NCBI GenBank assembly: GCA_017654855.1
Contig: CM030334.1
Span: forward strand, 3,844,001 to 3,908,000
Source: Podospora anserina
Taxonomy: Eukaryota
Direction: 5' to 3'
Length of the DNA stretch: 64,000 nt
Every line of letters starts with the position of its first letter. The first letter of the stretch is position 1. The notes beneath the pieces were generated by a model. It was not told the DNA's origin. It saw nothing but the letters and a program-made list of their open reading frames with translations, and did no database searches. Shown in pieces: positions 32,780-62,707 of the stretch. A program made the translations under genes and the position numbers.

Positions 32780-35700
32780 CTACTGCAACATCTGCTGCAT
32801 AGCATTAACTCTATACCCCTCCCTCCGTCCCATCAACTCCTCATGCGTCCCCTTATCCACCACCTCGCCCCCCTCCACCACAAAAATCACATCCGCCTTC
32901 TTCACGGTGTGCAGCCTGTGCGTAATAGCCAGCACGGTCGTCCCCCGCGCGACTTTATCCAACCCCTCCTGCAGCGCCGCTTCAGAGGCAGCATCCAAAG
33001 CCGAAGTGCTCTCGTCAAGCAGCAACAACCTCGGCTTGCGAACCAACGCTCTCGCGATGGCAAGTCTCTGCCTCTGCCCACCGGACAAGCGACCGGCGGA
33101 GGCGCCGCACTGGGTGTCGTACCCCTCCGGCATGGCCATGATCACGTCGTGGATGTTGGCTAGCTTGCACGCCTCCTCGATCTCCTCCTGGGTGGGGACG
33201 TGGTCGGGTTTGGAGCCGAGGGAGACGTTGAACCGGATGGTGCCGTCGAACAAGGCCGGGTCTTGCGGGACAATGGCGATGGAGTCTTTGATGGAGGCGA
33301 CGGAAGAGGTGACGTCTACGTTGTCGAGCAGGATTGAGCCCGACGAGGGGGAGTAGAGGTTCTGGACGAGGGACATGATTGTTGATTTTCCTGCTCCGGA
33401 CGGGCCGACGAGGCCGACGAATTGACCGGGGGTGATGGTGAAGGAGACGTTCTTGAGGGTCCGGTGGTCTGGGCGGGAGGGGTAGGAGAAGGTGACGTTG
33501 GTGAAGGTGATTTTCATGCCTGGTTCACCACCAGTAGCGGCCTTGGCTGCCGAGGAGAGGGCAGACTCCGGGTCGGAAGAGGGGCCGGGCTTGCCGTGCG
33601 GGCCACGCTTGGAGTCGATCTCGTTGTTTGTTCCCAGTGCCAAAACGTTCATGATGCGGGAGAAGGCGGTGCGGGCGCGGGAGAACTCGGGGGCGAGGGT
33701 GAACATTTGGCCCCAGAGCTGGGCGCTGACGAGCATGGAGACGACGATGATGAAGAATTGGGTTTGGTTGGCCTCGCCCGACATGATCTTTTGCGAACCC
33801 CACCAGTAGGCGAAGGCGTAGATCAAAAAGGACATGCTGTTGCTGATGGCGAGCCAGACGTTGGTGAAGGCTGCCGCGCGGACCATTTCGTCGCGGGTGT
33901 TCTTCAGGAGACGGGCGTACGAGCCCATGACCTCCTTTTCGAGGGACAAGGCGGCGACGGTCTTGATGGATTGGACGGCTTCGACGGCCACACCGGTTGC
34001 CTTGGCGTAGGAGGCCGCGTGGCGCTCTTCGTAGCGGGCGAGCTGGCGGAGTTGCATGAAGCCCGCCCCGAGGAGGATCGGGACGACGGAGAGACAGACG
34101 ATGGCAATCTTCCACTGGATGATGTGCGAGAGGATGATGGCGACGAAGAAGTTGACGATGATGGCAAAGACGGTGCCGATGGTGCTACCCGAGAAACCAC
34201 CGATGGCGGCGCTGTCTTTGGTGATGATGTCAAGCAGGGAAGTAGGGTTGCGGCCGCCGGATTGATGCCATTCGACACCCTGCTCCATTAGGCTTCTGAA
34301 ACTGAGCACGCGGATGGCATACAGCATTCTCTCGGCAATGAGACCAAAGCAGGACCACGCAAAGAAGTTGGCCAGGAGCTCAATGCAGGCCAACATGAAG
34401 AGCAAACCACCAAAGAACTTTCCGAGGTCGAGGATGTCCTCGGGCGAGTTCTCGCACGGGTTGAGAGCACCAACGGTGAAACCAAAGATGAGACCAGATC
34501 CGGAGAAAGTACCACCGACAATGACAGCCGCGAAGACAGCCAGAAGCAACCAGGGGAAAGAAGGCTTGACAAGACGGGCCAGACCAGCAAACACGGATCC
34601 CCAGCCGGCCTCCTTCTCCTTCTCCTCCTTGTCACTGGCCGCCTTTTCAGCAGCAGACTCATCCCTGCTGGAGATGGAAGCAGCAAGAACCTTGGCTGTC
34701 TCCTCCTCTTCCTCGTCAACGACAACAACATCCTTCTTCTCGCTGATCTCAGCAACAGCCGAAGCAGCAGCCTCCTGGTTACCCAAGCTCTGCAGCTTGG
34801 CCATGGCAAAGAACTTGCCATCTTCTCTCGCCATCAGCTCGTCGTACACCCCCTCCTCCACAACCTCACCCGCCTCCAGAACAACAATCTTGTCCGCATT
34901 ACGAACGGTACTCAACCTATGAGCAATGGAAATTACCGTCCTCCCCTCGGCAGCCCGCTCAACAGCAAGCTGGATCTTTTTCTCAGAAGTCGAATCCAGC
35001 GCTGCAGTGGCCTCGTCCAGCAGCAAAATCTTGGGATCTCTAATCAAGGCACGCGCGAGCGCCACTCGCTGTCTTTGGCCACCAGACACCAAAGACCCCT
35101 TGGGCCCAGCAAAAGTACCGTAGCCCTTTTCCAGATTGGAGATGAAGTTGTGCGCGTCAGCCTGGACGGCAGCCTCCTTGACAAGACGGATGACTTCCTG
35201 CACCGCAGGGTTGGCAACGCTACTGTCGTCAACGGCATCCTTGCCCTTCTTGGCCAGCTCGGCGAGCTCGCCACCTTCTACCACCGCCTTGAGAGCTTGG
35301 TGTTCTGGCTTGGGGGAGTTGACCAGACCGAGAGCGATGTTCTCAAGGATGGAGCGGTCGAGAAGAGAAGGTTCTTGCTGGACGAGAGAGATAAAACTGC
35401 GGAGGTGGGACACGTTCAGTGTCTTGATGTCTGTGCCGTCCAGGGTGATGACACCAGAATCGGGATCCTGCAGACGGGCGACGAGGGCGGCGATGGTGGA
35501 TTTACCGCTTCCCGAAAGACCGACGAGGGCGGTGTGCTTGCCTGCCGGGAGGACAAGGTTGACGTTGCGGAGGACTGGCTGCTCGGCGCGGGAGGGGTAG
35601 GCAAAGGAGACGTTTTCGAGCTGTATGTGGCCGGTGGTGGTCTCAACCGGCAAAAAGGCGCCTTCGGAGGAAGTGCCGTCGATGGTGGAGGGGGCGTTGA

Positions 35701-37042
35701 TGTCGGCCATCAGACGAGAAAAGGCAGTGGAGGCGCTGCCGAGGATGGGGAGGATGGGGGCGATGTTGCCGAGACAGACGCAGGCTTTCAGGGAGTGTTA
35801 GTTGTTGACAGTCAGTAAAAAAGGGAGAGAGAGAGAAAAACATACCATCAACCAACAAGAACACCACAGTATAAATCTGACCAACAGTTTCGGTTCCCTC
35901 GCCCCTGATGGTATCAACAACCATGCGACTACCCTGCCAGAAGGCCAGAGCATTGGCGCTGTACGCAATAAAGTACAGCATACCAGCCTGCATGGCAGCA
36001 GCAATGCCCTTTTTGACACCAGCACCTCTAGCCACGGCGACATGCTCGGCAAACTTCTTTTCCAGTCTGCCAGCCATACCGAACGACTGCACGACACCGA
36101 CGTGCTGAAGCGCCTCACCGGCAATGTTGCTGGCGGCAGTCTGGGAAGAAGCACTGATGACCATGAACTTGGTGACAAAAAAGCCACCGCCCATCGCCAT
36201 GAGCAAGAACGCCGGGATGAGCGAGACCAAAATCCCGGCCAACTTTGCCTGCTTGATGAACGCGACGACGTAGCAGGCGAAGAAGAAACTGGTCGAGGCG
36301 ATCAAAACGCCCACCTTTTCGGAAGTACCGGCCTGGACAGCAGTCATGTCGCCCTGTAGTCTGGTCGAGACCTCACCGCTGGCGGCAGATCGCGCGTCGA
36401 AGAACCCGGGGGGCTGTCTCAGCAAAGCCTGGACATACTGCCCTCTGAGTCTCTGAGCGAGACGCTGGGAGAAGAGAGACCAGGACAGGACGTAAACGTA
36501 GATGCAAACCAAGGCAGCAATGGCAATATACACCAGCTTGAGGACCTTGTCGTTGATGGAAGCCTCATAGGCGAAAGGGTCGTTGACGCCGTTGATGGAG
36601 GTGGAAGTGGAGGTGAGGTCAGAGTCGCCGGCCGCACAGGTGGCATCGTTCATGTTGTCGACGAGCTCACCAAAGATGATGCCCATCAGGGGGAAGGGGA
36701 TACCGGCACCGGCGGCGGAGATGACGCCGGTGATGAGAAGACAGACGTCGATCCATGTTGGCGACGCGGAAGCAAAGATCTTGAGCCAGACGAGGAGGCC
36801 ACCTTGGGGCTGGAGAGATGTTAGGGATCGAGTCAAATGTAAACAATGAGTGAAGCTATTCAGGGGCCGAAAAGGGGGATTTAGGGGCAGACACAGAAAA
36901 GACTTACGGCTTGTTCGGCAGCTGCCGGCGCATCAGAAGCACTTCCAGTGGTGGTAGGGGCAAGTGCCTTCTCCTTATCAGCGGCCGCATCACTCGCTGC
37001 AGCGCTGTGCGGACGCTTCTCTCCGGAAGCCTCGACCGCCAT
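32780..37042 (-). CDS. ABC-B (MDR-type) full-size transporter, probable siderophore exporter (SitT-like); introns 36810-36907 and 35785-35845
   Basis: TMD-NBD-TMD-NBD architecture; Walker A GLSGSGKS and GPSGAGKS, signatures VSGGQRQR and LSGGQRQR, Walker B LLLDEAT and LLLDEST. Substrate inferred from the adjacent siderophore NRPS. Confidence 0.92.
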
Positions 37043-41330: not shown

Positions 41331-42616
41331 TCCCTCGTCCAGGGACCCCCTGTTGACCAAATCCACTCCACACGCTCTCCTGAACCCCTGTCAAGATATT
41401 GAATCGGGGGTTTCAGCAACGGCTTTTTTTCTGATGTTTTTTTCCCCTCACCCCACCTCCCTTCACACCCTTTCTTGATCACCACCACCTACCACCACCA
41501 CCTACCGCATGTTCTGGGAGCACAGGACTTCTGCCACCACCACCACTACTCTACTCACCCATCCAATGAGCAATAGCAAGCCACACCTTCCCCTACCCAC
41601 TGCATTGGTCAATGGTTCGGGGCCACATCCAAATGAGGGAATGCCCTTCATGAGAAACGCTCGGCCGACTGTCTTCCGCAGCGTGACATCACATACTACA
41701 TACACACACACCATCACCTTGAACCCCTTTTTGCCTGTTTTTGTTTGTTATAGGTTAATACCGTACGTACGTACATACACACCTGTATCCTTCTCGTACC
41801 GCATCGCACATCTTTGCCTGCAGCAAGGCAACAATGGGATGGGATGGGATATCCCTCTCGCCACATGCCCGGCCACGCCATCTTCACAGATCCGTACCCA
41901 CTTGTTCGCAGAGAGCAAAAGCCCATGAACCTGGTCACACACATGGCCAAGTCTCGCTTGCGGAGACAAAAGGGAGCTAGAGGCCGGCGAGGAAGCCATC
42001 TCGGTGCATCGGTCGAGTCGATACCGCACCCTCCTTCCCGTCTTGCATCCAGGAAAGTAGTTGCTAGTCCCGACCACCGGCGTGTCATCTTGCCGTATTC
42101 AAGGGCTCGAGAATCACGAGCCAATGTCCAACAAACCTGAACCTAGCCCCAGACCCTTCAAGAGCGGGGTTTTTTTTTTCTTGTCGTAAGGTCTAGTAGT
42201 GAAGACCCGGGAATGGGGTATCATTCCGGCTAGTATCCAGCACCCATACATATCCAAACATGGATGGGTTGGATTCGCTAGTCTAGCAGATGCAGGTTCA
42301 CCAAAGTGAAAAGTTGCCGGTCGTACCTGGTCTTTCCCTCTCCTGCTTTCTTTCCTTTTTCCTGTCCTCTGTATCAAGAACTGCAAGAAGAGTGTCACCC
42401 CGATTATTGTACCTCTCTTGTCAGCATTCTCCCTCGAACAAAAAGTAGCAGAAAGGGATATCCCGCTGCCCACCCCCATGCGTTGATCCTGTCCTGTAAG
42501 GTCACTACACGCTACCACGACACGGCAAAGAACCTCTCGACACAAGATAGAAAGCGGGAATTAACCGACAGTCGTGTCCCTTCCCGTAGCCAGCTCGGCA
42601 AAACATACCAGACAAT

Positions 42617-45600
42617 ATGCATCTCGCCCAGCACGCACCCGGCATCCTGGGTGGCCTCCGCCGCGATGCCATGCAGCTCGACACCCAGACCATTCCTCTA
42701 GACTCTGTTACCAGGACGCTACCAGTACCCGAATCAGAGTCTGCTCTCGACGCCCTTCTTCTCGCCTGGGGTGCTCTCCTCCAAAGACAACGAGGCGACG
42801 ACGACAGAGTAGAACAGTTCTCCTGGGGCCACAAGTCGCAAAGCTCACCATCAGAGATCTCCACCCGCTTTTCCCTCAGGGCTCTCGGTCTCGAATTGAC
42901 CAGGTCACGATCAGAGTCTGTATCAACCTTCCTCCAGGCCGTCAAGACCTCAACCGAGAACATCGCCCGCCCAGGGCTCCTCTACCTCTTCTTCAACGAC
43001 GAGAAGGAGACCTCCTTTCCCCAAAAAGAGACGGCTGGACCATCTGTATGTACTCCACCGTTTGCCCCCCCGCCCCTGAAACACGACTGACTGACAATCC
43101 CCAGCAATTCGACTTCCAACTCCGTGTCTCCAAGCATGCTTCTGCCCTCACCCTCGAGGGCGTTTACCCTACCACCGAAAAGCCCGACTCCCTCAACTCC
43201 CGGCAGGCCGGAGACAGACTCGACACCCTAATTCAACTTGTTAATATCATCACCACTCAGCCCGAAGCCCCCATCTCGGCCCTCCTCGAGCCCCTCGGCC
43301 GTGACCTCGACCAAATATGGGCCTGGAACGCCGAAATGCCCCCTCTGATCGACCGGACGATGCAAGACATCATCTCTGAGCAGGCCGCCGCTCGCCCGGA
43401 CAAGATTGCGCTTTCCTCGTGGGATGGCCAATGGACCTACGCCGAGCTCGAGCTCATGTCTACCCGCCTGGCGCATCACCTCGTTTCTCAGGGCATCACA
43501 GTTGGTGTTAATGTACCGCTATGCTTCGAAAAGTGCCGGTGGACCATCGTCGCTTTGTTGGCCATCATGAAGGCTGGTGGCGCATTTGCCTTGACGGACC
43601 CAACATCTCAGCCAGAGGGCAGACTGCGCGCCATGGTGGAGCAAACCGGCGGCAAGCTGGTCGTTGCCTCCGCCGCTCAGACTGAGCTGGCGAAGCGTCT
43701 TGTTCCTGAAGATGGCAGCCAGGTGGTAACGGTGAACGAGGAGCTGTTCCAGTCTTTCTCCACCATCGAGGGCGAGCTCCCCCCATTGCCCACTATCCCG
43801 ACTGTCACCTCTCCTCTCTACATCCAGTTCACCTCTGGCAGCACAGGCAAGCCCAAGGGTGTCGTTGTTTCTCACGCCAACTTCACCAGCGGTGCCATTC
43901 CCCGTGCTGAGGCGGTGGGGTACAAGTCTTCTACCAAGTGCTTCGAGTTTGCCAGTTATGCCTTCGATGTCAGCATCGATTGCATGCTCTGCACTCTGTC
44001 AGTCGGTGGTACCATCTGCATCCCCTCTGATGCCGACCGCATGAATGACCTTGGCGGTGCCATCAGGGCTAGTGGCGCCAATATGGCGCACATGACACCC
44101 AGTGTTGCGCGTGTGCTCGATCCCGCCGTGATTGCTGAGCTTGACGTCTTGGGATTGGGCGGTGAAGCCATCTCGGCTTCTGATGCGGCTGCGTGGAGCA
44201 AGGGCAAGACCAGCGTCATTATCGCGTATGGCCCCTCCGAATGCACTGTCGGCTGCACTGTCAACAACACCTTTGCCAAGAACAAGGACGAGCGCAAGGT
44301 GTTTACGACCGGAAACATTGGCCGTGGTGTCGGCGGTGTAGGCTGGATTGTCGACCCCGAGGACCACGACCGTCTGGTTCCTGTCGGATCAGTCGGCGAG
44401 CTGCTGGTGGAAGGCCCCGTCGTCGGTCTTGGTTACTTGGGTGAGGCCGAGAAGACGGCTGAGGTGTTTATTGAGGACCCTGTATGGTTGGTTGCCGGAC
44501 ACAAAGAGATCCCTGGCAGAACCGGCCGGCTCTACAAGACTGGTGATCTTGTTCGGTACGATGCTGATGGGTCTGGTGACTTTGTCTTCATCGGCCGCAA
44601 GGATGCTCAAGTCAAGCTCCGTGGACAGCGTGTTGAGTTGGTTGAGATTGAGCACCATCTCCGGCACCACCTCCCAAGCCGTGTCAAGATCGCTGCTGAG
44701 GTCATCAAGCCTGCGGGAGCCGAGCCTACTTTGGTGGCCTTTTTGGCCGAGCCTCGCACCAAGAGCGGCACAACCGAGGAATGTGACGAAGCGGAGGCCA
44801 CCTTCTCTGATGAACTGACCAAGGCCCTGACCGGTATCGAGGAAGCGCTTGGCGTCGATCTTCCCCGGTACATGGTCCCCGCGGCATTCATCCCTCTCCG
44901 CGACATGCCAGTGCTGCCTTCTGCCAAGATCGATCGCAAGAAGCTTCGTGCGCTTGGTGGCGCCATGACGCGCGAGCAGATCACTGGCAGCGCCCGCAAG
45001 AACAAGAGCAGCGAAGGTGGTGCCCCTTCGACCGAGATGGAGCGGATGCTGGCTGCTGTGTGGAAGTCGTTGCTTGGGGACCATACCGACATCACTGTTA
45101 GCGACAGCTTCTTTGCTCTCGGCGGAGACTCTCTCAGGGCCATGAGACTCGTTCCCGCTGCTCGCGCTGAAGGCATTGTTCTGTCGGTTGCCGATGTCTT
45201 CCGGTACCCTGTCCTCCGGGATATGGCTGTGGTTGCTAAGAAGGCAGAGGCTGGAAGCGGTGGTGCTGCTGCTGACGTCCCACCCTTCTCCCTGATCGAC
45301 AAGGCCTGGTCTGCTGAGGCGGCAAAGACCGAGGTCAGCCAGCTTTGCGAGGTTGACAAGGCCGATATCGAGGATGTCTATCCCTGCACACCGCTCCAAG
45401 AGGCCTTGATGGCGCTCTCTGCCAAGGTCAAGGAGGCCTATGTAGCCCAGCGTGTGCTCAAGATGAACAATGCCAAAGACGCCAAGAAGTTGCAGAATGC
45501 CTTCGAGGCCATCGCCGCCGACTCCGCCATCCTCCGCACTCGTATCGTTCAGGTGTCCGACTACGGTCTCATGCAAGTCTTGATCAGGGAGCCTATCCAG

Positions 45601-48600
45601 TGGCGCACTGCGTCATCGTTGGCCAGGTATCTCGAGGACGACCGTGACGAGGAGATGGGTCTCGGCAAGAAGCTTGTTCGCTACGCCATGATCCGCGAGG
45701 GCGACGTCTATCACTTTGTACTGACCATGCACCACGCTCTCTACGACGGATGGTCGATGCCCCTGGTAGTTGACCGTGTCAACCAGGCCTACCAGGGTGT
45801 TGCTCCGAGAAAGCCAGCGGCCCAGTTCAAGCACTTCATCGACTACCTCAACAACAGGCTTGATCGTGCAGGATGCGACACTTACTGGCGTGAGCAGCTC
45901 GACGGTGCGACGGGTGTTCAGTTCCCCCGGCTTCCCTTTGAGGGCTACCAGACCCAGGCCGACTCCCTCCTCGAAGTCGATATCAAGCTTGATGGCCGGA
46001 AGCTCCCATCAGTGCCCGGCGCCACCATCACTCTTGCCAGCGTGGTTCGCGCGGCGTGGGCTCTGGTGGCCTCCCAGTACTGCAGCGGCAACAACGACAT
46101 TGTTTTCGGCGAGACACTGACTGGTCGCAATGCCCCCATCGTAGGCATCGAAGAGATCGAGGGTCCCATGATCACCACCGTTCCCGTGCGGGTCACCATC
46201 AACCGCGAGTCGTCCGTCGAGCAGTATCTTCAGACCATTGCCGAGCAGATTGTCGGTCAGATCCCATACGAACATGCCGGTCTTCAGCACATCCGCAAGT
46301 TGAGCGACGACGCCCTCCAGGCTTGCGAGCTGCGTACTGGTTTCGTGCTGCATCCCGCAGCTGGCGAGGTCGAGGCTGACGACAAGACACCGGCCAACGG
46401 GTTGGTGCCGGCGGGCGATGGCGAGGCGGCCCAGGAAGCGCTCAAGTTCAACACGTATGCCCTCATGTTGGTGTGCTCCCTTTCTTCCGATGGCTTCTTC
46501 GTGATGGCCAGTTTCGACTCCAAGACGGTCAGCAAGGACACGATGGAGCGAGTGTTGGAGCAGCTCCGGACAGTGGTGCACCAGCTCTGCGAGGGCGATG
46601 CGAAGGAGGTCAAGGTCGGTGACTTGCAGTGTCTGACGGATGCTGACAGCAAAGAAGTTGAGGATATGAGCAAGAAGTTCAAGTTGGAGGGTGCTGACTT
46701 GGATGCGCTTGGGTTGGATCGGGCTGACATTGCCAGTGCCTGGATTGCCGATGCAGCTGACCACACGCGCCCCTCCCCGCGTGGCGCTGTGGGTGAGCTG
46801 TTAGTGGAGACCACCAAGACCCTCAGCGCCCCTGCAGTCGCTGTGCAGACACCACCGCCGCTGTGGCTGAAGAGCACCACTGTCAACGGCGGCCAGATCT
46901 ACAGAACCGGACGACTTGCCAGCTTCGAGTTCAGTGTCGACACTCCTGTTCTTCGCGTGCTCCCCAAGTCGGCCCAGATCAAGCCCGATTTCACTGTCCC
47001 CAAGAAGAAGGCTGCTTCGTCTGGCCCTGCCATCTCTGCTTCCTCTGCCAAGCAAAAGCTGCTCCGGGGCATATGGAGTCGTCTTCTCAAGGTCGATGAG
47101 GACAAGATCTTCCTTGGTGACAGCTTCTTCAACCGTGGTGGCGACTCGATTGCCGCCATGAAGCTCGTCTCCGAGGCCCGTCAGCAGGGAATGCAGCTCA
47201 GCGTCGCGCAGGTCTTTGCCAACCGGACTCTGTATGACATGGCCAATGTCATGCAGCCATCGCCCACTGTCATCACCAACGTTCAAAGGGGCCAGGGCAG
47301 CAGCTCTCCCGCGAGCCCATCCAGTCCCTCCAAGGCCGACTACCAGCCCTTCTCTCTCCTCTTGACCTCCTTCATGCGTCGTATGCAGAGATCGCTGGCC
47401 GACAAGTCATGGAAGATCCTCGATGTTCTCCCCACCAGACCTCTCCAGGAGATTGCCGTCAGGGGTACCGTTGAGCTTCCTCGCTTCTCCATCCGCTATG
47501 AGCTCATGCACTTTGAGGGCATGGTCAACAAGAAGCAGCTCTTCCGTGCCTGCCAAGAGCTTGTCGCCATCAACGAAGTCCTTCGCACCGTCTATGTCCG
47601 CCTTGATGATGTCTGCTACAGCGTGGTGATCGAGAACCCCTTCATTGTCGACATTGTCGAATATGAGATTGACGGTGACGATGTCGAGGAGTTTGCCGGC
47701 AAGGTCAGCAGACTGGATGCCCAAACCAAGATGCCTTATGGTTCTTCCTTCGTCAAGTGGTTCTTTGTCACCAACGGCACCAAGAGCACCCTTGTCTTCC
47801 GCCTGTCCCACGCCCAGTACGATGAGATTTGCCTTCCCATCTTCCTCAATCAGCTCCAGCAGCTGTACCAGGACCCCAAGTCGGTCTCTCCATCGTACCC
47901 CTTCTCCACCTTTGTCGACCACACCATCCAAGAGGGCATTCCCGCTGCCATCCCCTACTGGCGCGACCTCCTTGCCGGTTCTGAGGGTATTTCTCTCTTG
48001 AGACCTGACACCCCCATCACCGACCGCCGCCACTTTGCCATCCACAAGCCCGTCAACATCGCCGCCCGCAGCCGCGACGTGACCGTAGCTACCCTTCCCT
48101 CCGCAGCCTGGGCTTTGACCTTTGCCCGTCTGCTCAAGGTCAAGGACGTGGTATTCGGCGAAGTCGCCTCCGGCCGCAGCGTCGACATACCCGGCATCCC
48201 CGACGCCAACGCCATCGCCGGCCCCTGCTGGCAGTACGTCCTTACCCGCGTCAAGTTCGATGGCGACGTCCCCATTCGCACCGGCTACGACCTGCTCGAG
48301 GCCCTCCAGACCCAGCACATGATGACTTCTTCGCACGACTGCATGGGTCTGGAGGAGATTGTCCGGAACTGCACAGACTGGGATCCTGAGGAGGTGACCT
48401 GGTTCGACACGGTCGTTCACCAGGATGTGGCCCACGTCGAGACCTTGTCATTCTTGGACCGCAAGGCCAAGTTTGAGACGCTGTATGCATACGAAGAGCC
48501 GTTGAGGGAGTGGAAGATTCAGGCTTTCCATGATGGGGATACCTTGACCATTGAGGTTATCACTTTTGAGTCGTGGAAGGAAGAGGCGGTGAAGTTGTTG

Positions 48601-48666
48601 GATGATGTTTGTGCTTCGTTGGAGCAGTTGGTGAACAGGCCTGGGGAGGAGTTGAACATTGCATAG
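42617..48666 (+). CDS. NPS6: Extracellular siderophore (coprogen/fusarinine-type) NRPS, SidD/NPS6 family, A-T-C-dA-T-C; intron 43046-43104
   Basis: A domain YIQFTSGSTGKPKG, FDVS, AYGPSE, YKTGDL, GRKDAQVKLRGQRVE; T FFALGGDSL; C MHHALYDGWS; vestigial A (GAVGELLVE...IYRTG); T2 FFNRGGDSI; C2 SHAQYDE. This is the SidD/NPS6 architecture. Confidence 0.92.
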
Positions 48667-50570: not shown

Positions 50571-50938
50571 CAGATTAAGACTTTCTTTGCCGGAAAACCC
50601 GTTTCTCGTCACGCGTAGCTTTTGAATCTATCACACATTGATGGCGTGGAAGCCAGAAAATTGTCCCAAAGTCTGATCATGTCTTCGACCAGTACAAAGC
50701 GTGCTGTCAATCTTCTTCCAATCCTTTGCTCACCAGTCTACCATCATCTACATCTTAAAATAAACTTATATTTCCTGCCCCCTATCCTACCAACCGACTA
50801 AAACTATAACGCTATTATTAAAAAACCCTGACCGGCCGAATCCGGTTTGGAGGGTCTCAGGTCGTTTGAGTGGCGGATGCTTTATTTTATCGAAGCATTC
50901 GGTCTTTTCACAGATCCAGAGAGGTGACCTAGTTACAG

Positions 50939-51370
50939 GTGCTGACCTTTCTGTCTTGTACTAGACCTCCTCCCGACCCTTCCACAACGCCTTGCGAGCC
51001 AGGAAAAGACATGTCAGATATCATCGCCCGAATCATCGTGCGTGACGAGCAGGTTGATCCGAGGCTATCAATACGTACCTACCAGTTTGAAACACCGAAA
51101 TGGTCGCTATGGCAAAGGCTTCGCGGGACCGCCATTTGTGAATGCAGGAGCTTCTGGTATTGGAATGTCCTGCCGAGACTGGACGACCTGCGGATATCGC
51201 TACAAGAGTTGGTAGGAATGGAGGGACGATACATTAGACCGTTTCTGCGTCGTATGCTTCACGCAAAGTACGAGGCTGATTGGGCTCACAAAGAGTACGA
51301 AGGTGATTGGGATCACGAAGAGTGGAGTGGAGATTGTGATCAGGAAGGTGATTCTGATTGGTCATTGTAA
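50939..51370 (+). CDS. Possible last exon of a small hypothetical protein with an acidic Trp-repeat tail
   Basis: Protein-like ORF after a ctgac...tag acceptor; tail YEADWAHKE-YEGDWDHEE-WSGDCDQE-GDSDW. The upstream exon is unclear. Confidence 0.35.
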   Translation: MLTFLSCTRPPPDPSTTPCEPGKDMSDIIARIIVRDEQVDPRLSIRTYQFETPKWSLWQRLRGTAICECRSFWYWNVLPRLDDLRISLQELVGMEGRYIRPFLRRMLHAKYEADWAHKEYEGDWDHEEWSGDCDQEGDSDWSL

Positions 51371-51955
51371 TTGGGGACTGAGGGGTTGGTTTGCATATAG
51401 AAGCAATTTACAGACTTGTCTTGATCTTAACGCAACCTCCTGATTGCCCTAGAGATTCAAAGATCGACCTGGTATTATTTTCACCCATCATGAGGTTCTC
51501 TTTGGAGAAGCGTAATTCTAACTTTGAGGATATGCGGGGTCCGAAGCTCAACTTCAGCCTTTTTTGTTAGACTTTTTTCGCGTCTGCAAAGTGGACATAG
51601 GGAGCCTGAGGCTCGTGACTCTACTGTACAGAAGCCTATCATCATGGAAATGACTTTGATACTTTGGGTGGTGTTAAGGGTTAGCCATGTGGGTCAAATG
51701 GTGGTTTTGGGTTTGACACAGATGGATGTGTGAAACCTAATACTGCGCTGAACTCTACCTTAACCGTTTGTTAAATTATTACCTTCACGATTCATTTTTA
51801 TTTCTTGATTCGTTTCTCCCTTGTCCCTCAACCATCATCATCATATACCATTTGTCAACGACAGCCAGTAGCCACTCCCTCGCGTGCAGACGATATATCT
51901 GAAGTCAGCGTCCTGACCAATCACCGCTCACTAAGGCCAGTCGGTCGTCTACAAA

Positions 51956-53042
51956 ATGACTATCTTGGACAAGTTCTCGCATCGGGTACAAAAATCGTCG
52001 TTGAATATCCTCCAAAGACTTCCTAGGCCCTGCAATGTCTTCTCGGAGCACTTGGTAAAGGAGGCACAGCCAGAAGCGGTTGCTCAAATACCAGAGGGCG
52101 AAGAGAAGGAATGCCTCGAACACGAGCTGGAGGATAGTGAAGAGGAATGGGTACGCAGGTGCCAGGTAAGACTCCATGTAACGCCATGCGTTGATTGTGG
52201 TATCATTATCGGAATCTAACAGGCCTACCTACAGGCAATCCACCGGGATGGCGGAGCGTGTAATATAGAGGCAGTTACCTGCAACTTCCACTGTCAGCAC
52301 CACGAAGAACTCAGACAAGCACTCCAGCGACAGATCAACGAAGGTAAGGAGAGGGTCGAAGGGTGCTATCAGAGACTGCCTTTTGAAGAGTTGGAGAGCG
52401 AGCACTTCCCGGGTGGAAGCGGAGAAGCCTTGGAGGCTCTCAACTTCCACAACTCCGTCATCGCCCGCCGCTACCTGGTCACGATGATATTTTACCCCAA
52501 CCCTTATCCTACGTGGTGTGAACCCGAGGATGGCCACTTTCAATACATCCGCTCTCTGCAGTGGCGTCGGGACGCACTGGTTGATTTCGTGCGGGAGCAG
52601 AGGGAGAAAGAGGGCTTCGACCTTTCTGCGTACAAGTCGGTGGAAAGATGGGTTGCTGATTTGGCTGAAGAGCATCATCTCTTTGACCAGCCTGAACGGT
52701 AAGTGGATGACTGCACCCAAGTTCTCGTGCCCGTCCAATGTCAAACTAATCTAACGACTGTGGTTTTCTAGGGACTTGCCAAGAGAAGGAATGGAATATG
52801 GCTGCGATTCGAAGGGTGTTCTCGCCAAGATTGTGGAAAGAACCCACGAGCATGATCCCCGCCAGGAGAAACCACAAAAGCCGAAACCATACGTGCGGAC
52901 AGAAGAGGAGTGGAATGAGTGGATTGAAAAGACGAATAGGGAATATTGTCTTGATACTAGCCGTGACGAGGAGGAGGCTGCTAGACAACTTGAATGGGCC
53001 GAAGAATCGGTCGATTTTGTGCCAGATGAAACTCCCTGGTAG
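51956..53042 (+). CDS. Uncharacterised protein of about 314 aa with a Cys/His zinc-knuckle-like motif; exons 51956-52165, 52235-52698, 52772-53042
   Basis: Two canonical introns (gtaag...ctaac...ag) join three ORF pieces into one open frame containing RCQAIHRDGGACNIEAVTCNFHCQHH. Supported by a paralog at 54410 with the same intron sites. Confidence 0.75.
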
Positions 53043-54409
53043 AGGCCCGATGGCTTCTGGAGTGCTGAACACACACCTTGGATAACATGTTGAATGCATT
53101 CTTTGCGTTTACTCTTTCTGACATATTATACATTACAACCTCACTTTGCTGTTTTGCTACGATTGAGCTCTGGCTTAGGGGCTTTGGCCTTTTTTTTTTT
53201 TTCCTGACAGGGTGTGTTTGGAAGATTCCAAGTTGTTCAAGGTTTGACAGCATTTTTTAACGTTTTTGTTTCAAACTATTGGGTGAAGATTTTCTCGAGT
53301 TACCAATAAACATCCTGAAAATCTTGATGTGCCTCACAAGTCGTCCGTCCATGTCCCGTCACATTGACCGATTGAAATTTTACTCTGTCGCATCAAGCTC
53401 AGGGTCCAAACATCATTATGGTTGCAACTATAGACTTTCCACCTCATCTATATCCAGTGAACTCTATGATTAATAAAGACACATTACGAAGACATGTGGC
53501 CTCAGAATCCCGCGGGTATTGCACTAGACAAACCTTCACTTGGCTTTCCGGTGGCTTCGCAATCTGGTTGGGCGTGCATGAGAGTTACCAGACACATTTA
53601 AGTTAGGAGAGCATGACGGACCCAAACACCTCGTTGCCTGTCGAGCAACTAAGACATGGAGAAGGCCCATTGTTGATCACGAAGTCATTGGTGATGATGA
53701 AGATTTAGCAGTGACAGTTAGCTACCTTACCTTATATTTATATGTTTTCCGTACAGTATTTCGGTCCTAGTATTTGTTGCTCAAACTTTCAATTAGTAGG
53801 TACTATAGCTTTTTAGACCAAGCCATTATTGACAGTAAACCTAACAGAAGAGGTCTCTGGCTAGTTTCCTTGTAGGGACTGATCCTGTCTTGGCTTTTGT
53901 CGTGGAAGAACAGCATCACACCTCTGAACTGAGCTAGGTAGGGATCGATTCCATATATCAACTCACGCTTATCAACTTGGGTTTTTATGCCGGACGGAGG
54001 TCGGGTGACTGCTTATGATGGTGGTTGGACGTACGATATTCACTGAGTATCAACCGCTATTCATCAAGCATTCACTGCAAGCCAGGAAGAGCATACTCAT
54101 TATAGTTCAACACATATACAACGCTTTCAGGCTTATTTGCCCCACAGATATATCACAGGTGCCCCCAACCTAAAATTCCCTTCGATTGGTTTGGCATGGC
54201 TAGAGCCTAATAGTATAGATATAAAATAACCTTTTTCATGAAGCAACTGTCGGCGTTCTCTCTCTTTTCTCTCCCACCTTCTCTTTATTCAGCTGCATTC
54301 TATCAGTATTACTTGCTAGGTCACTTGTATCACTAACTCTAACAAGGAGTCCTTCACAAATCAATTCCCGTGAACTCAAGACCACGTACAAACCAGCTGG
54401 GACACCAAA

Positions 54410-55071
54410 ATGGCCTCCGAAGACTCGTTCCCAAGCGATAAATGCAAGGTAAGCTTTCCCGCCTCCACACGGTACCTGGACCAATACTCTTATCATTCAC
54501 AGGCGCTTCACAAAGACGCTTTTCGCTGCGAGCAGCCGACAGCGTCCGAGTCTCCATGGTGTCATAAGCACCAAAGGCAGAAGATGTCATCTACGGGTTG
54601 ACTTAATAGCACAAGGGGTAGGTTAATACTTACGACTACCTTAAGATCTCGCCTTTAAATAATCCCGCGCATGCTGGCGAGGTACTTACCTTCTATAACC
54701 AAGTTATTGCGTTAAGGATCCTTACGTCTATCTGCTTCTTCCCTTCGGTGGAGGGAATTGATCGTGGCCACAATATATGGCTTACCCATCTGGGTCGCAG
54801 AAGGGACAGCGCTATGTTCGCAGCTAGGAAGTATCGTCTGGAAGGCCTCTCCGTCGATCTGGAACCTTACATCTCAGTGAGCGAGTGGATTCAGCGCCTT
54901 AGACAGCAACATGATCTTCTCGAGGATCCAGATCGGTAAGGACCATTGTGATCCATAATCCTGTTTAGTTTTGATATAGTCACTATTTTGGCCTCCAGGA
55001 ACCGTGAAGATGCAATCCCATGGGAGTGTCAATGGGTGGAAGATGATCAACGAAGTCCGTTTCCTTGGTAG
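54410..55071 (+). pseudogene. Pseudogenised paralog of the 51956-53042 gene; introns 54449-54502 and 54936-54998
   Basis: KCK|ALHKDAFRC...WCHKH, EVLTFYNQVIALRILTSICFFP and GH...RRD...DLEPYISVSEW...HDLLEDPDR| align with the neighbour. Frameshift near 54580 and stops at 54604, 54607 and 54619. Confidence 0.75.
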
Positions 55072-56220
55072 TTGGATCAAGTACGAATACCACGCTACCG
55101 TGAAGCCCACCTTCGTCGTGTTCTCCGGTCTATGGGTACTTGCTTCAAGCGCGAGAAAATAATAGAGAGTTGGTACGAGGCAGTGGAAGGGGATTGGGGA
55201 GAGACAAAATAAGGGGATTGGTAGCGAGACTTGGACGCGTGAGTTAGGTACAAAAAAGAGCAGGACAGGCAAAGCACAAGGAAAGCACTCACTTCACAGA
55301 GCTATCCTAGTCTGGTAATACCTAACTTCAGGTGGTTTCTGCCTTTCAGTCCAGCCAGCTCTTTAGCTAAATCCAAAAGTCAAACCCCAACATGCTTTTA
55401 TTCAGCGCCGCTGTGCTGTTTGTGCCTATGCTCTCCACTATATCTGTATGATCTGGTGGATGGATTTGTTGTCCCTCATTATGGCCCCCTGAACCCCTGA
55501 ATTGGCTTGGCACAGATACGAGGACCCTACCCTTGAGACAAGAAACTGCAAGCAGTGCAGGGTATAACGGCTCCATTAATGTGGTTGTGATGTTTGATAT
55601 CTACTCGTTTAAAATGATCTTCAAAGTCAATCGGGATTTCTCCTTCTGCATGGGAGTGGGTTGGTCACAGCATCCAGCCATGATGATGCGCTCGGCCGTA
55701 ACTCCCATCCTTCCTTCCCAGCCGTGTTCTCATCCCGTTTTGGGCTCCCCGCCTTCGTCATCGTCTGCGGGGCAGGGGCAGGAGAAGCCACTGCCAGGTG
55801 GTCTCAAACACCTGATGACCGGCATGACCCACCCATTCCAACAGTTGGGGAGCACGACAAAGAAATGCCTGAGAAGGCGTCGGTTAACTGGGCAGTCCGG
55901 TGAAGTAATCTCCCCATATTATTGAGTCGTCCCACCTGAGAATGATAAGACTCGCTCCACAGTCTCCGGACCGGTGGCTCTGGCACGACTTCCTGAAATC
56001 CTCGGCCAATCTAAGCAGCTCTGACATCAGGAGCTACTTCATGTTGCTCCGCTGCGGGCCGGGATGCGGATACTCAGAACTTTCATGAGGCCGCAGAGGC
56101 TCTTCAAGTGTGAGCACTAAAGTCCTCTTGTCTTCTTGAACTGAGAAGGGTTATTTTCCCATCAACATACATCACCCAGAACCACAACAAGTAAATCACA
56201 CCAAACAACAGTCGCATCTC

Positions 56221-59393: not shown

Positions 59394-59916
59394 AGGGGGA
59401 GGTTTCTTTTGATGGGAGTTGATTAGAGCATTGCGATGGTGTTGGGGTTTTGCTATTCTTGTTTTGGTATTTTGTAGTTTTGGACGGTTTTGGATTCAGG
59501 TGTAATTGGAACGATGGAGGGGAAGCTACATAGGATACAATGCTTAAGCTTGGTTGATCTCAAGCAAGAATATCAAGCAAGATGAAAAGTAGTTTTTGAA
59601 TCACACACGCTGTTGTAACACCGGAATCTGGACACAATTCGTCATGTGACTTCTCACGGGTTTATCTGTCCTGAATTAGGTAGAGCTTAGGACTAGCTCA
59701 TCTTCGGCTCCAGTCTATTCACCTCGCTCAGAGACTGCTTAAAGTCTGCTTACCTCGCTTATAGATTATTTAGAATTTACTTACCCTACTTAGAGCTAAT
59801 TTAAATTATGTTGAAATAGGTGCTATTGAGGCCTGTAAATACAGGCTCAAATAGCTATCGGCGCAGTACACTGAGAGCGAAGAAGACTTTGACTGCAGCA
59901 TTCGACAGTTGCCGGG

Positions 59917-60313
59917 TGTGACGAACCCCTATCCAGAACCTCTGAAAGGGACACTGGTTGAAGGCACTTCTGAACAATCCTAGTTCGGTACAGCTAAACA
60001 GTGTACAATAATGGCTTGTCTCAATCACAACAGTTTAGATACCAACGATTGTGACTTGTATTACATACTGCGGAACTGTCTATCTACACCAGTCAGTTTC
60101 TTCGTATATATAGACCTCGGGACCGTGAGGTGCTCGCCCTGCTACGGCCCCGATCACCCTTAGCATCTTGCATCCTGCAAGTGCTCGTGAGCCTTGGCGC
60201 CATAGCACTTTTGTCCAACTCTGATTGGCTGTTCCCTGACTTCCTTAATGATTGGGCTGGGGACGTCCTGCGCCCCACATGTGGCGCGGCCTGCTGTTGG
60301 GTTAACTGTGACA
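59917..60313 (-). repeat. LTR copy 1 (397 bp, TG...CA)
   Basis: TGTGACGAACCCCTATCC...TTAACTGTGACA; the first ~135 bp closely match 61985-62120. Confidence 0.85.
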
Positions 60314-60554
60314 TAAACTCGGTTATCGATTTTACTACTGTTGGAAATACCCTCTAAAAGCTAGCAGAACGAAGGTAACGAAAAAGGACGATTAGAGACG
60401 ATAGGATCCTCTGTCGGACGGTACTACTAGTTAAAACAGTGGTGAAATTATCGAAATACTGATTAGAGAAGCTTAAAAGGGACTTTTAACCTGTTGTACG
60501 TCCGCAGAGATGTGTAATAGTCAATGATATTTTTAGATACTTTTACAAGCAGCT

Positions 60555-60898
60555 TGTCACAGACCAACCATATAGCAAGGCAGAGTGGAGACTGCAGCAA
60601 GCCGTGGTGGCCAATCAAGTGAAAGACAACGGCGGGGCTGCAGGACAGTGGGGCGCTCACTTGTTGATCGAGGTGAGCCAGGTACGGAGGTACTTAGAGG
60701 ATTGAGGTCTATATATACGGAGGAACTGGCTGGTGTAGACAGACAGTTCCGCAGTATGCAATCACAGCTTGTATTCACGGTATCTTGTGTTTACATTGAG
60801 ACATCTTGTTGTGCACTGTTTAGCCGCACCGAACCAATTGTCAGAAGCAGCCTTCAACCAGTATCCCTTTCAGAGGTTCTGTACAGGGGTTCGTCACA
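60555..60898 (+). mobile_element. Solo LTR (344 bp) in opposite orientation with 5-bp TSD CAGCT
   Basis: TGTCACAG...GGGGTTCGTCACA, flanked by CAGCT at 60550-60554 and 60899-60903. Its 3' ~130 bp closely match the reverse complement of the shared segment of the other two LTRs. Confidence 0.92.
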
Positions 60899-61053
60899 CA
60901 GCTCCGGAGAGCAAAAGCCTTCCTTATCCTTCACCAATAAGCAGGCCTCAGGGCCGAAGCCCTGAAGCAACCTGCTTGAATAATCCGCCGGGAGCAATAC
61001 CTCCCACATTTTTCCTTGTAGCTGACGGCTACGATCTCTATAACCTTTACCCC

Positions 61054-61926
61054 TTACGATATGGTTGCTACTGCAGCCTCCTTCTTCCACTTAAGTTGCT
61101 TGGGTGCCCGACAGTCCTTCTTAAAGTGTCCTGTCTTCCCACAGTTAAAACACTTGAGGTTATCCCTGCCCTGGCCCCAGCCCTGAGGCCTGTGTTGCTG
61201 AAAAGCGTCGACCTCTATAGGGCCTGCGTGGGTAGTGCTGGAGTAGCCAGTACTGGGGTATTGCCGTTTGCGCTTATCGTTGGAACGGTTGTTGCCGTAG
61301 TGACCCCGCGTATTGCCTCTCTTCTCCGTGCGACGCTGGAACTGCCTATCGTCGATACGTATGGCCATGGCGATATACTTGTCGATAGTGTCGGGTCTCG
61401 ACTTCATACATAACTCATCCTTTACTTCTTCCTTGAGGCCGTTGTAGAAAAACTGCATCAACCCCGCATCGTTGATTTTGCTGCGTAGGCTGTCGATCTT
61501 GAACGCAGCCGCGTAGTCGGCTGCTGAGCGTGTCTGGCGCAGGCTTGCGAGATTCTCCTGCGCACGCCTTTTCTCATCGTACTCTCCAAACACTTCCTTG
61601 AGTCTGCTGGCTGCGAACAGCACCTTGGACTCCTCGGTGGTGAACATGTCTGGGTAGTGACGAGAATAGGTCTTGAGCTGGATTGGGAACCCTCTAAGCT
61701 CCCCCTTCCCGCCGCCATAGCGCTCTGGTACCGGGAACTTAGCCACCTGTCTCGGGCCTGGGTGGATCGCAGTGATCTGATCCTCGGTCTGCTCGGTCCG
61801 GCCCTCGAGCTCTCGAATGCGTGCGATAAGCTGCTCGAAGGTGGAGATTTCCGATGCGGTGGTATGTCCCGTGGTGGGCGGCGTAGCAGTAACGCCTTCC
61901 ATCTGAACGTTCATGTGGTCGGCCAT
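61054..61926 (-). CDS. gag: Ty3/gypsy Gag (probably internally deleted)
   Basis: PERYGG, KVLFAASRL, LRQTRSAADYAAAF, FYNGLKEEVKDEL, GPIEVD and zinc knuckle CFNCGKTGHFKKDC. Confidence 0.88.
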   Translation of the reverse strand: MADHMNVQMEGVTATPPTTGHTTASEISTFEQLIARIRELEGRTEQTEDQITAIHPGPRQVAKFPVPERYGGGKGELRGFPIQLKTYSRHYPDMFTTEESKVLFAASRLKEVFGEYDEKRRAQENLASLRQTRSAADYAAAFKIDSLRSKINDAGLMQFFYNGLKEEVKDELCMKSRPDTIDKYIAMAIRIDDRQFQRRTEKRGNTRGHYGNNRSNDKRKRQYPSTGYSSTTHAGPIEVDAFQQHRPQGWGQGRDNLKCFNCGKTGHFKKDCRAPKQLKWKKEAAVATIS

Positions 61927-61984
61927 GGTGGTGGTAAGGTAGCATTCAACTTATCTGTGACAGAGTTAAAGTGAATATACAACA

Positions 61985-62707
61985 TATGACGAACCCCTAT
62001 CCAAAACCTCTAAAAGGGATAGTAGTCGAAGGCGCTTCAGAACAATCCTGGTTCGGTACAGCTAAACAGTGTACAACAATGGCTTGTCTCAATCACAATA
62101 ATCAAGATACCAACTGTGACAAGGGCTGCATATCAGGGCTTGGAACCGTGGTTCAATTCAGCTAATAATCTTCAATGGCCTCGAACAGCTTGATGAAGAA
62201 GAAGATTTAGGAATACAAATAGGTCCAGAGGACGCGTCTTTATCCATCATCAAGTGGTCCGTACCCTCAGGCCACTGCCAAGGCCTTTAATATAACCAGT
62301 TGACCAATACCTTTCCTTTGATAGCCGCGAGGCCCTTAATTGCCTCACTTCCAACCACTGGCTCACGGCGTGCAGGTAGATTGCAGTTGGGCCGTGGTGT
62401 GGCGTCACGGCTTGACACTTAGTGGGGCGCGGGGCGCACCACGGACCAATCAGAACAGGATCAATGGGATCGAGGATCGATCCAGGAGAGTCAACCCCAA
62501 AAGGGACAGTATCGATCACTTCTCCCAGCGTAGGCTCACCATGGATCACGGTGCCAAGAGTGATCCTGCGTCACCTTAGGATCACTTTGATCACCACGCT
62601 CCTAGCGCTCCCAGGCGCTCCACCTCCCATTGGTTCCTTTAACGATTGGCTGGGCACGTCCTCTGCCCCGCATACTCTTCAAACTGCCCGCTGGCTTAAC
62701 TGTGACA
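61985..62707 (-). repeat. LTR copy 2 (723 bp), 5' LTR relative to gag
   Basis: TATGACGAACCCCTATCC (G>A versus copy 1)...GGCTTAACTGTGACA; lies about 60 bp upstream of the gag ATG on the minus strand. Confidence 0.8.

What the first reader, a model, noticed from the sequence alone, without database searches (positions are those of the whole stretch)
51956..55071. Tandem pair from an uncharacterised Cys/His-knuckle gene family with identical intron positions
Invisible in the ORF track. The two loci share C-x|A-x-H-x-D-x3-C-x10-C-x2-H with a phase-0 intron at the bar. They also share EALNFHNSVIARRYLVTMIFYP / EVLTFYNQVIALRILTSICFFP, GH-x9-RRD, DLxxYxSVxxW and a phase-2 intron at P[ED]R, and both end in PW-TAG. 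Copy 1 is intact; copy 2 has a frameshift and three stops consistent with C>T. The knuckle resembles DUF5763-like motifs by eye. An old, divergent family undergoing birth and death in an accessory region suggests a conflict or sexual-cycle role (inference). I recognise no known family for it.
Basis: partly seen in the sequence, partly recalled or inferred. Interest (0 to 1): 0.7.

Follow-up and report, generated by a model that had tools for sequence, protein, structure and literature searches.

The report
Zinc-knuckle gene beside its dead paralogue
This is a real pair of neighbouring fungal genes from a tiny, unstudied family found only in Podospora and close relatives: one copy is a working, already catalogued 'hypothetical' gene whose public model seems to miss a zinc-binding cysteine, and the other is a decayed pseudogene.

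Summary
Copy 1 (51956-53042) is the Podospora anserina gene Pa_3_11197, listed in databases as an uncharacterised protein. They give a 314-aa protein, not the public 309-aa model, which drops five residues including the first cysteine of the knuckle.

Copy 2 (54410-55212, longer than reported) is a pseudogene. Against an intact 280-aa orthologue in Cercophora samala it has three in-frame stops, three frameshifts and a deletion of about 63 codons. Its 'PW-TAG' end is not the ancestral end.

The family is very small. Two paralogue lineages were found, in Podospora, Triangularia, Cercophora and Apiosordaria only, out of 1.84 billion representative proteins. No Pfam family passes its threshold.

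The knuckle has the spacing C-x9-C-x10-C-x2-H, the same as the plant WRC zinc finger. It gives only sub-threshold hits to DUF5763 and WRC. Behind it lie a helical bundle with no specific structural match and an acidic, tryptophan-rich tail.

Function is untested. I infer a zinc-stabilised binding module on a helical scaffold. A conflict or sexual-cycle role, C>T or RIP decay, and an 'accessory region' have no support. Interest is modest.

The parts
51956..52165 (+). Copy 1 (Pa_3_11197), exon 1: start codon, basic N-terminus, acidic linker and the first Cys of the knuckle (codon 52160-52162).
   Evidence: Translation. The RNA-type contigs run through 52151-52162 as exon. The product is identical to P0010.
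52166..52234 (+). Copy 1, intron 1: 69 nt, phase 0, GT..AG. The public 309-aa models instead use a donor 15 nt upstream (52151) and so lose five residues, including the first Cys.
   Evidence: A joint skipping 69 nt is seen in 2 of the 2 contigs that cross it (runs X1 and X4, one study). P0002 is compared with P0010.
52235..52698 (+). Copy 1, exon 2: the rest of the knuckle (to His93, codon 52301-52303), then the helical core (from about 52415).
52699..52771 (+). Copy 1, intron 2: 73 nt, phase 2, inside the Arg codon of P-E-R.
   Evidence: A joint skipping 73 nt, GT..AG, is seen in runs X3 and X4 (two studies).
52772..53042 (+). Copy 1, exon 3: acidic, Trp-rich tail ending P-W, with TAG at 53040-53042.
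54410..54448 (+). Copy 2 (pseudogene), exon 1 relic: start codon and the first Cys of the knuckle.
   Evidence: tblastn of P0013; frames.
54449..54502 (+). Copy 2, intron 1 relic: 54 nt, GT..AG, phase 0, at the same position as in copy 1.
   Evidence: Gap of 18 codons in the P0013 alignment; sequence.
54503..54935 (+). Copy 2, exon 2 relic: intact knuckle coding, then a frameshift (54584-54585), stops TAA 54604-06, TAG 54607-09 and TAG 54619-21, then a 105-codon stretch (54622-54936) that is still open.
54936..54998 (+). Copy 2, intron 2 relic: 63 nt, GT..AG, phase 2, at the same position as in copy 1.
54999..55212 (+). Copy 2, exon 3 relic. It lacks about 63 codons compared with the Cercophora samala orthologue and shifts frame near 55042. 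A second frameshift lies near 55109. The ancestral frame ends at TAA 55210-55212.
   Evidence: tblastn segment 55043-55108, E 3e-5; frames and alignment.

Best explanation
SHOWN. The finding is a tandem pair of paralogues from a very small gene family restricted to Podospora and close relatives (Sordariales).

Copy 1 is the annotated but uncharacterised P. anserina gene Pa_3_11197. That gives a 314-aa acidic protein (pI 4.9) with these parts:
- a short basic N-terminus;
- an acidic linker;
- a Cys3-His knuckle with spacing C-x9-C-x10-C-x2-H;
- an alpha-helical core of about 95 residues;
- an acidic, Trp-rich tail ending in Trp.

The public 309-aa model uses another donor site and deletes the first Cys of the knuckle.

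Copy 2 belongs to the sister lineage, which is intact in Cercophora samala. Here it is a pseudogene with three stops, three frameshifts and one large deletion.

INFERRED (about 0.35). The four conserved ligands hold one zinc ion, as the same spacing does in the plant WRC finger. This makes a small rigid knuckle that docks a partner. The partner could be a protein or a nucleic acid; the knuckle is not basic, so a protein is at least as likely. The helical bundle and acidic aromatic tail would serve as scaffold and interaction surface. On this reading it is a lineage-specific intracellular adaptor or regulator that can be lost, as the death of copy 2 shows.
For: Identity and annotation: the exon 2 query hits the Podospora cluster at 97%. 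The cluster holds named members from 6 species, including P. anserina PODANS_3_11197. P0002 equals the window's product except for the five residues.

Splicing: GT..AG joints at 52165|52235 and 52698|52772, and the 314-aa P0010 from a 1197-nt contig.

Paralogy: E 6e-14. The split between lineage A (copy 1 and Triangularia) and lineage B (copy 2, Cercophora and Apiosordaria) has 100/99 support.

Pseudogene: P0013 against the window gives 61% identity over 153 residues, with stops and frame changes, and 70% over 211 aligned positions.

Restriction: 3 proteins at E<=0.001 among 1.84 billion representatives; 4 at E<=0.1 in the profile search; none in two metagenome scans.

Knuckle:
- The first Cys and the C-x9-C and C-x2-H spacings are kept in all 4 sequences that cover the knuckle.
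- None of the substitutions among the four Podospora orthologues compared falls in the knuckle.
- P0013 gives sub-threshold hits to DUF5763 (E 0.016) and WRC (E 0.022).
- WRC has the same CX9CX10CX2H spacing, binds one Zn and needs it to fold (passages of bioRxiv 10.1101/2025.01.03.631214).

Helical core: AlphaFold2 helices with pLDDT of about 70-83 in both models.
Against: Nothing tests function.
- Both AlphaFold2 models are poor overall (mean pLDDT 48.8 and 53.1). The knuckle itself is modelled at pLDDT of about 30-55, so the geometry of the four ligands is unverified.
- Pfam scores are about half the gathering thresholds. They come only from lineage B; copy 1 and the Triangularia protein give no hit even at E<=10.
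- The W-R-C triplet and the basic residues that contact DNA in WRC are missing in copy 1. The knuckle has a net charge of about -1 to +1.
- The second loop is 14 residues, not 10, in Triangularia.
- The RNA status of runs X1-X4 is a guess by the tool, and depth is low (about 2-4).
- No DNA of orthologues was available, so purifying selection was not measured.
Confidence: 0.6

Rival explanations
1. Copy 1 is a sequence-specific DNA-binding transcription factor of the WRC type. The knuckle would read DNA and the acidic Trp-rich tail would act as an activation domain.
For: The Cys3-His spacing is the same as in WRC, with a sub-threshold WRC hit for the lineage B protein. The tail is acidic and aromatic (net charge -12). 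The layout, a finger followed by a variable C-terminal activating region, resembles that described for GRFs.
Against: The WRC score is 14.9 bits against a cut-off of 28.6, and copy 1 gives no hit. The Trp-Arg-Cys triplet and flanking arginines that form the DNA surface in WRC are absent from copy 1. The knuckle is not basic. No nuclear localisation signal was tested.
Confidence: 0.15
2. The gene serves the neighbouring secondary-metabolite genes, for example as a cluster-specific helper or regulator. These are the SidD-like NRPS Pa_3_11200 at 42565-48663 and the ABC transporter at 32783-36932.
For: It lies 3.3 kb downstream of an A-T-C-T-C NRPS, with an ABC transporter further upstream. Pa_3_11200 was named as a SidD look-alike (passage of PMC3495915). 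Nearby genes Pa_3_11193 and Pa_3_11220 were listed within predicted metabolite clusters up-regulated in a PaRid mutant (passage of PMC6709928).
Against: Proximity is the only evidence. Synteny in Triangularia, Cercophora and Apiosordaria could not be examined. SidD-type clusters are widespread in fungi while this family is confined to four genera. Pa_3_11197 does not appear in the supplementary tables searched.
Confidence: 0.1
3. One reading: a fast-turnover family engaged in genetic conflict or with a role in the sexual cycle.
For: Lineage restriction, tandem duplication, loss of one copy, and patchy retention of the two lineages among genera. A retrotransposon gag gene lies 6 kb away.
Against: There is no similarity to any known Podospora conflict or incompatibility family (Pfam none). 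The gene is kept in all six species of the complex listed, with 7-12 differences in 309 residues among the four orthologues compared. No stage-specific expression data were obtained.
Confidence: 0.08
4. Copy 2 is not dead. Its stops would be repaired in fruiting bodies by A-to-I mRNA editing, as in premature-stop-corrected genes of other Sordariomycetes, or it would be rescued by unusual splicing.
For: Two of the three stops are TAG, which editing can turn into Trp codons. The core 105 codons are still open and 73% identical to the Cercophora protein. Other notes of this scan on the same genome raised editing-corrected stops as a lead.
Against: Editing cannot mend the three frameshifts or the deletion of about 63 codons. 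The intact orthologue has Lys, His and Arg, not Trp, at the stop positions. The only GT..AG span over the lesions would be about 36 nt, and it covers sequence that aligns as coding.
Confidence: 0.03

Closest known systems
WRC domain (Pfam PF08879) of plant GRF transcription factors
   Same: Identical ligand spacing C-x9-C-x10-C-x2-H. An Arg precedes the second Cys in lineage B. A helix starts at the third Cys in the model. There is a sub-threshold HMM hit. WRC binds one Zn, which it needs in order to fold.
   Different: The score is far under the gathering threshold. There is no Trp-Arg-Cys triplet in copy 1 and no basic DNA-contact surface. The family is fungal and is followed by an unrelated helical domain, with no QLQ domain. 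The Triangularia member has 14 residues, not 10, in the second loop.
DUF5763 (Pfam PF19067), a 39-residue Cys/His motif of unknown function
   Same: It is the best Pfam hit for both lineage B sequences, almost gap-free over the whole knuckle: residues 10-43 on profile positions 2-34 of 39. An Atlas cluster carrying DUF5763 is also labelled in part with WRC and zf-C3HC3H_KANSL2, so these motif families overlap.
   Different: Scores are 14.2 and 15.1 bits against a cut-off of 26.3. There is no hit for lineage A. DUF5763 itself has no known function, and no paper in the library mentions it.
Pa_3_11197 / PODANS_3_11197 and its annotated orthologues (QC76x_311197) in the P. anserina species complex
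   Same: Copy 1 is this gene. The protein is identical apart from the intron 1 donor.
   Different: The public models are 309 aa (293 in P. pseudocomata) and omit five residues, including the first zinc ligand. RNA-type contigs and a 314-aa public contig product support the longer form.
Premature-stop-corrected 'pseudogenes' repaired by A-to-I editing in Sordariomycetes (recalled; also raised in notes)
   Same: In-frame TAG stops in an otherwise conserved frame of a Sordariales fungus.
   Different: Copy 2 also has frameshifts and a large deletion, and the stops do not replace Trp.

Membership tests
WRC (PF08879) | Profile score at or above Pfam's gathering cut-off (28.6 bits) | tested here: not met
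   P0013 scores 14.9 bits, E 0.022. P0010, P0011 and P0012 give no hit at E<=10.
WRC (PF08879) | Ligand pattern C-x9-C-x10-C-x2-H | tested here: met
   Present in copy 1, copy 2 and P0013. P0011 has x14 in the second loop.
WRC (PF08879) | Conserved Trp-Arg-Cys triplet and arginines that form the DNA-binding surface | tested here: not met
   Copy 1 has Gly-Ala-Cys. Lineage B has Leu/Phe-Arg-Cys. Knuckle net charge is -1 to +1.
WRC (PF08879) | Binds one Zn(II), which is needed for folding | not testable with these tools
   Needs protein chemistry. The AlphaFold2 knuckle has pLDDT of about 30-55.
DUF5763 (PF19067) | Profile score at or above the gathering cut-off (26.3 bits) | tested here: not met
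   14.2 bits for the copy 2 frame and 15.1 bits for P0013. None for lineage A.
Pa_3_11197 orthologue group | Near-identity over the full length to the annotated P. anserina protein | tested here: met
   P0002 equals the window's product except for five residues at the intron 1 donor. The 90% cluster has 10 members.
Editing-corrected premature-stop genes | A stop that replaces a conserved Trp in an otherwise intact frame | tested here: not met
   The orthologue has Lys, His and Arg at the stops, and copy 2 also has three frameshifts and a deletion.
RIP-mutated duplicate | Raised TpA/ApT together with lowered (CpA+TpG)/(ApC+GpT) | tested here: not met
   Over 53.5-55.5 kb the values are 0.93-1.0 and 1.12-1.18, and the composite index is negative. 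The copies share only 37% protein identity.

The most novel reading that the evidence does not exclude
The family is a fungal offshoot of the WRC / DUF5763 / KANSL2-type Cys3-His knuckle, fused to a helical domain with no known relatives. It would act as a lineage-specific regulator, possibly of the adjacent SidD-type siderophore genes. The broken copy 2, whose first 45 codons (start codon, intron 1, whole knuckle, then a stop) are still intact, would yield a knuckle-only micro-protein that competes with copy 1.
Probability: 0.06. Interest if true: 0.55.

Novelty: new variant of a known kind. Interest (0 to 1): 0.3.

Why it matters
The result is modest but concrete.
1. It corrects the public gene model of Pa_3_11197 and its copied orthologue models. 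The correction restores a conserved cysteine that is probably a zinc ligand.
2. It defines a tiny family with two lineages, with one intact and one dead copy side by side. This is a clean small case of gene birth and death in a model fungus.
3. It shows that the C-x9-C-x10-C-x2-H knuckle, best known from plant GRF factors, occurs in a fungal protein with an otherwise unmatched helical domain. That gives a simple, testable target (zinc binding, localisation, knock-out) in an organism with easy genetics.

It does not open a long-standing question.

Tried and rejected
Family, fold and structure searches that gave nothing usable:
- Pfam on all exon translations and on P0010, P0011 and P0012: nothing above threshold. 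A Rep_trans hit on exon 3 (E 0.025) and a Kringle hit (E 0.1) were taken as noise.
- PHROGs: only E>=0.057.
- PDB sequence profile search: one hit at E 2.3.
- ESM Atlas: no usable feature hit for P0010 or P0013. Structure rows all have TM<=0.28 by query.
- Foldseek against PDB with the P0010 model: 0 matches at E<=0.001.
- VIA-align wide search with the P0013 model: best Z 8.3, to a de novo designed helical protein. This is within the range the tool calls common for helical bundles.

Sequence collections and the genome:
- Metagenome scans with the lineage B alignment and with copy 1 exon 2: pattern matches, but none confirmed.
- No whole genome is held for the window. Other paralogues in the genome, and orthologous DNA, could therefore not be searched.

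RNA and literature:
- RNA: no listed holder is on record as RNA. The four runs laid gave no cover over copy 2. This says nothing about whether copy 2 is expressed.
- Literature: 'Pa_3_11197', 'DUF5763' and 'PF19067' occur in 0 papers of the library.
- Pa_3_11197 is absent from the supplementary files searched for PMC6709928 (7 files) and PMC9801653 (3 files).

Other checks:
- Repeats around the pair: only short chance-level matches.
- The upstream ORF 50933-51370, which also has an acidic Trp-rich end, is unrelated to the family.
- A short intron spanning the copy 2 lesions was considered and rejected.
- Earlier notes of this scan: none for this place or for this sequence.
Full report
**1. What is at the coordinates**

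The region holds two related split genes on the + strand.

Copy 1:
- It starts at ATG 51956.
- Exons are 51956-52165, 52235-52698 and 52772-53042. They give 945 nt, that is 314 codons and a TAG.

Copy 2:
- It starts at ATG 54410.
- It has introns at 54449-54502 and 54936-54998.

The core of copy 1 aligns to the open frame of copy 2 at 37% identity over 93 residues, E 6e-14 for the single comparison. A tblastn of family proteins against the whole window finds these two places and nothing else below E 0.004.

**2. Organism and annotation**

Copy 1's exon 2 hits one protein cluster at 97% identity. The 10 members of the cluster include:
- PODANS_3_11197 of Podospora anserina S mat+;
- 'hypothetical' orthologues from P. 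pseudopauciseta, P. bellae-mahoneyi, P. pseudocomata, P. comata and P. pseudoanserina.

The P. anserina entry (309 aa) equals the window's product except that it lacks five residues just before intron 1. So copy 1 is Pa_3_11197, already catalogued but uncharacterised. The gene name occurs in none of the papers searched. It also does not occur in the supplementary tables of two P. anserina transcriptome papers.

**3. Splicing**

I laid contigs of four public runs, which the tool guesses to be RNA, on 51500-55600. They show two joints and no others:
- One skips 69 nt (52166-52234, GT..AG), in runs X1 and X4.
- One skips 73 nt (52699-52771, GT..AG), in runs X3 and X4.

Both contigs that cross intron 1 carry 52151-52162 as exon, which contradicts the donor used in the public models.

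The five restored residues contain the first Cys of the knuckle. That Cys is also present in copy 2, in the Triangularia protein and in the Cercophora protein.

Caveats: the RNA nature of the runs is a guess, depth is 2-4, and the two contigs for intron 1 come from one study.

**4. Copy 2 is a pseudogene, and it is longer than reported**

A profile search found an intact 280-aa relative in Cercophora samala (P0013). Laid on the window, it matches copy 2 at 61% identity over 153 residues, and at 70% over 211 aligned positions in the read-through alignment.

Against it, copy 2 has these lesions:
- two extra bases at 54584-54585;
- stops at 54604-06, 54607-09 and 54619-21;
- a gap of about 63 codons with a frame change near 55042;
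- another frame change near 55109.

Recognisable homology runs to the stop at 55210-55212. The 'PW-TAG' at 55069-55071 therefore lies in a shifted frame and is not the ancestral end.

The three stop positions are Lys, His and Arg in the orthologue. RIP indices over the locus are not RIP-like. A C>T origin therefore has no support.

What is still intact in copy 2:
- the start codon, intron 1 and the whole knuckle (45 codons up to a TGA);
- a 105-codon stretch of the core.

**5. Size and shape of the family**

An exhaustive phmmer search of 1.84 billion representatives with copy 1's exon 2 gave 3 proteins at E<=0.001:
- the Podospora cluster;
- a 226-aa Triangularia verruculosa protein (49% identity);
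- a 98-aa Apiosordaria backusii protein (38% identity).

The profile search added only the Cercophora protein: 4 proteins at E<=0.1 among 4848 candidates. Two metagenome scans confirmed nothing.

A maximum-likelihood tree of six rows splits the family into two lineages with 100/99 support:
- Lineage A: two Podospora copy 1 orthologues and Triangularia.
- Lineage B: copy 2, Cercophora and Apiosordaria.

The duplication therefore predates the divergence of these genera. Each of the other genera has an annotated member of only one lineage. This fits gain and loss, though missed gene models cannot be excluded. The Apiosordaria model, for instance, stops at the TAA inside the unspliced intron 2 donor, judging from where it ends.

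**6. The protein**

P0010 is acidic: pI 4.9, with 68 Asp+Glu against 39 Lys+Arg.

The knuckle is C-x9-C-x10-C-x2-H in copy 1, copy 2 and Cercophora. In Triangularia the second loop has 14 residues. None of the 7-12 substitutions that separate four Podospora orthologues from the P. anserina protein falls in the knuckle.

No Pfam family passes its threshold. The sub-threshold hits are:

| Query | Family | E-value | Bits | Cut-off |
|---|---|---|---|---|
| Copy 2 frame | DUF5763 | 0.031 | 14.2 | 26.3 |
| Cercophora P0013 | DUF5763 | 0.016 | 15.1 | 26.3 |
| Cercophora P0013 | WRC | 0.022 | 14.9 | 28.6 |

Lineage A gives no hit at all.

The WRC finger of plant GRFs has exactly the spacing CX9CX10CX2H. 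It binds one zinc, which it needs in order to fold, and it contacts DNA through its Trp-Arg-Cys triplet and arginines (passages of bioRxiv 10.1101/2025.01.03.631214). Those contact residues are not kept in copy 1. An Atlas cluster labelled DUF5763 is also partly labelled WRC and zf-C3HC3H_KANSL2, so these motif families overlap.

AlphaFold2 gave poor models overall, with mean pLDDT 48.8 for P0010 and 53.1 for P0013. Both show the same set of long helices behind the knuckle at pLDDT of about 70-83. Fold searches returned only generic helical bundles.

**7. Surroundings**

- Upstream lie an A-T-C-T-C NRPS (42565-48663, +) and an ABC transporter (32783-36932, -).
- The NRPS fits Pa_3_11200, named a SidD look-alike in PMC3495915 (passage). 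Its transcript is 7.4 kb (Table S1 of PMC9801653).
- Downstream lies a retrotransposon gag gene with a CCHC knuckle (61057-61950, -) in a mildly RIP-like stretch.
- Nothing links these to the pair except distance.

**8. How it most likely works**

Shown: a transcribed, spliced gene and its dead paralogue, a conserved Cys3-His motif, a helical core and an acidic tail.

Inferred, at about 0.35: the four ligands hold one zinc and form a small docking knuckle. The helical bundle and the acidic aromatic tail provide scaffold and interaction surfaces. This would make a lineage-specific intracellular adaptor or regulator. Because the knuckle is not basic, a protein partner is at least as likely as nucleic acid.

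Rivals, with my odds:
- a true WRC-type DNA-binding factor (0.15);
- a helper of the neighbouring NRPS genes (0.10);
- rescue of copy 2 by RNA editing (0.03). This is rejected because frameshifts and a deletion cannot be edited away, and the stops do not replace Trp.

**9. Verdict**

The thing is a small, unnamed family whose only recognisable element is a variant of a known zinc-knuckle pattern. One copy is already in databases as a hypothetical protein. The useful outputs are:
- the corrected gene model;
- the full anatomy of the pseudogene;
- the definition of the two lineages.

Interest is modest (0.3).

Noticed in passing
window 42565-48663 (+) and 32783-36932 (-): A single-module NRPS (AMP-binding, two PP-binding and two condensation domains) lies near a full-length ABC transporter. 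It fits Pa_3_11200, which a 2012 paper lists as a SidD (fusarinine synthetase) look-alike, so this may be a siderophore-type gene pair.
   Followed up: partly
window 52151 vs 52166: All the public orthologue models listed from six Podospora species use the same upstream donor (five at 309 aa, and a 293-aa one in P. pseudocomata). They probably inherit one mis-called intron, and the P. pseudocomata model also lacks 16 residues of the core.
   Followed up: partly
window 61057-61950 (-), with 59500-62000: A retrotransposon gag ORF with a CCHC zinc knuckle lies in a stretch whose RIP indices are mildly raised (TpA/ApT 1.1-1.2, composite index just above 0). The gene pair itself shows no such signal.
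   Followed up: partly
window 50933-51370 (+): A 145-codon open frame just upstream of copy 1 ends in an acidic, Trp-rich repeat. It has no Pfam family and no similarity to the family studied here. Whether it is a gene is unknown.
   Followed up: partly
window 21528-23501 (-): A 658-codon frame with a strong DUF7896 match (E 2.5e-31), another domain of unknown function.
   Followed up: no
window 51511-52012: RNA-type contigs cover 51511-51752 and 51777-52012, upstream of the copy 1 start codon. This suggests a 5' UTR of at least 180 nt, or an upstream transcript.
   Followed up: no
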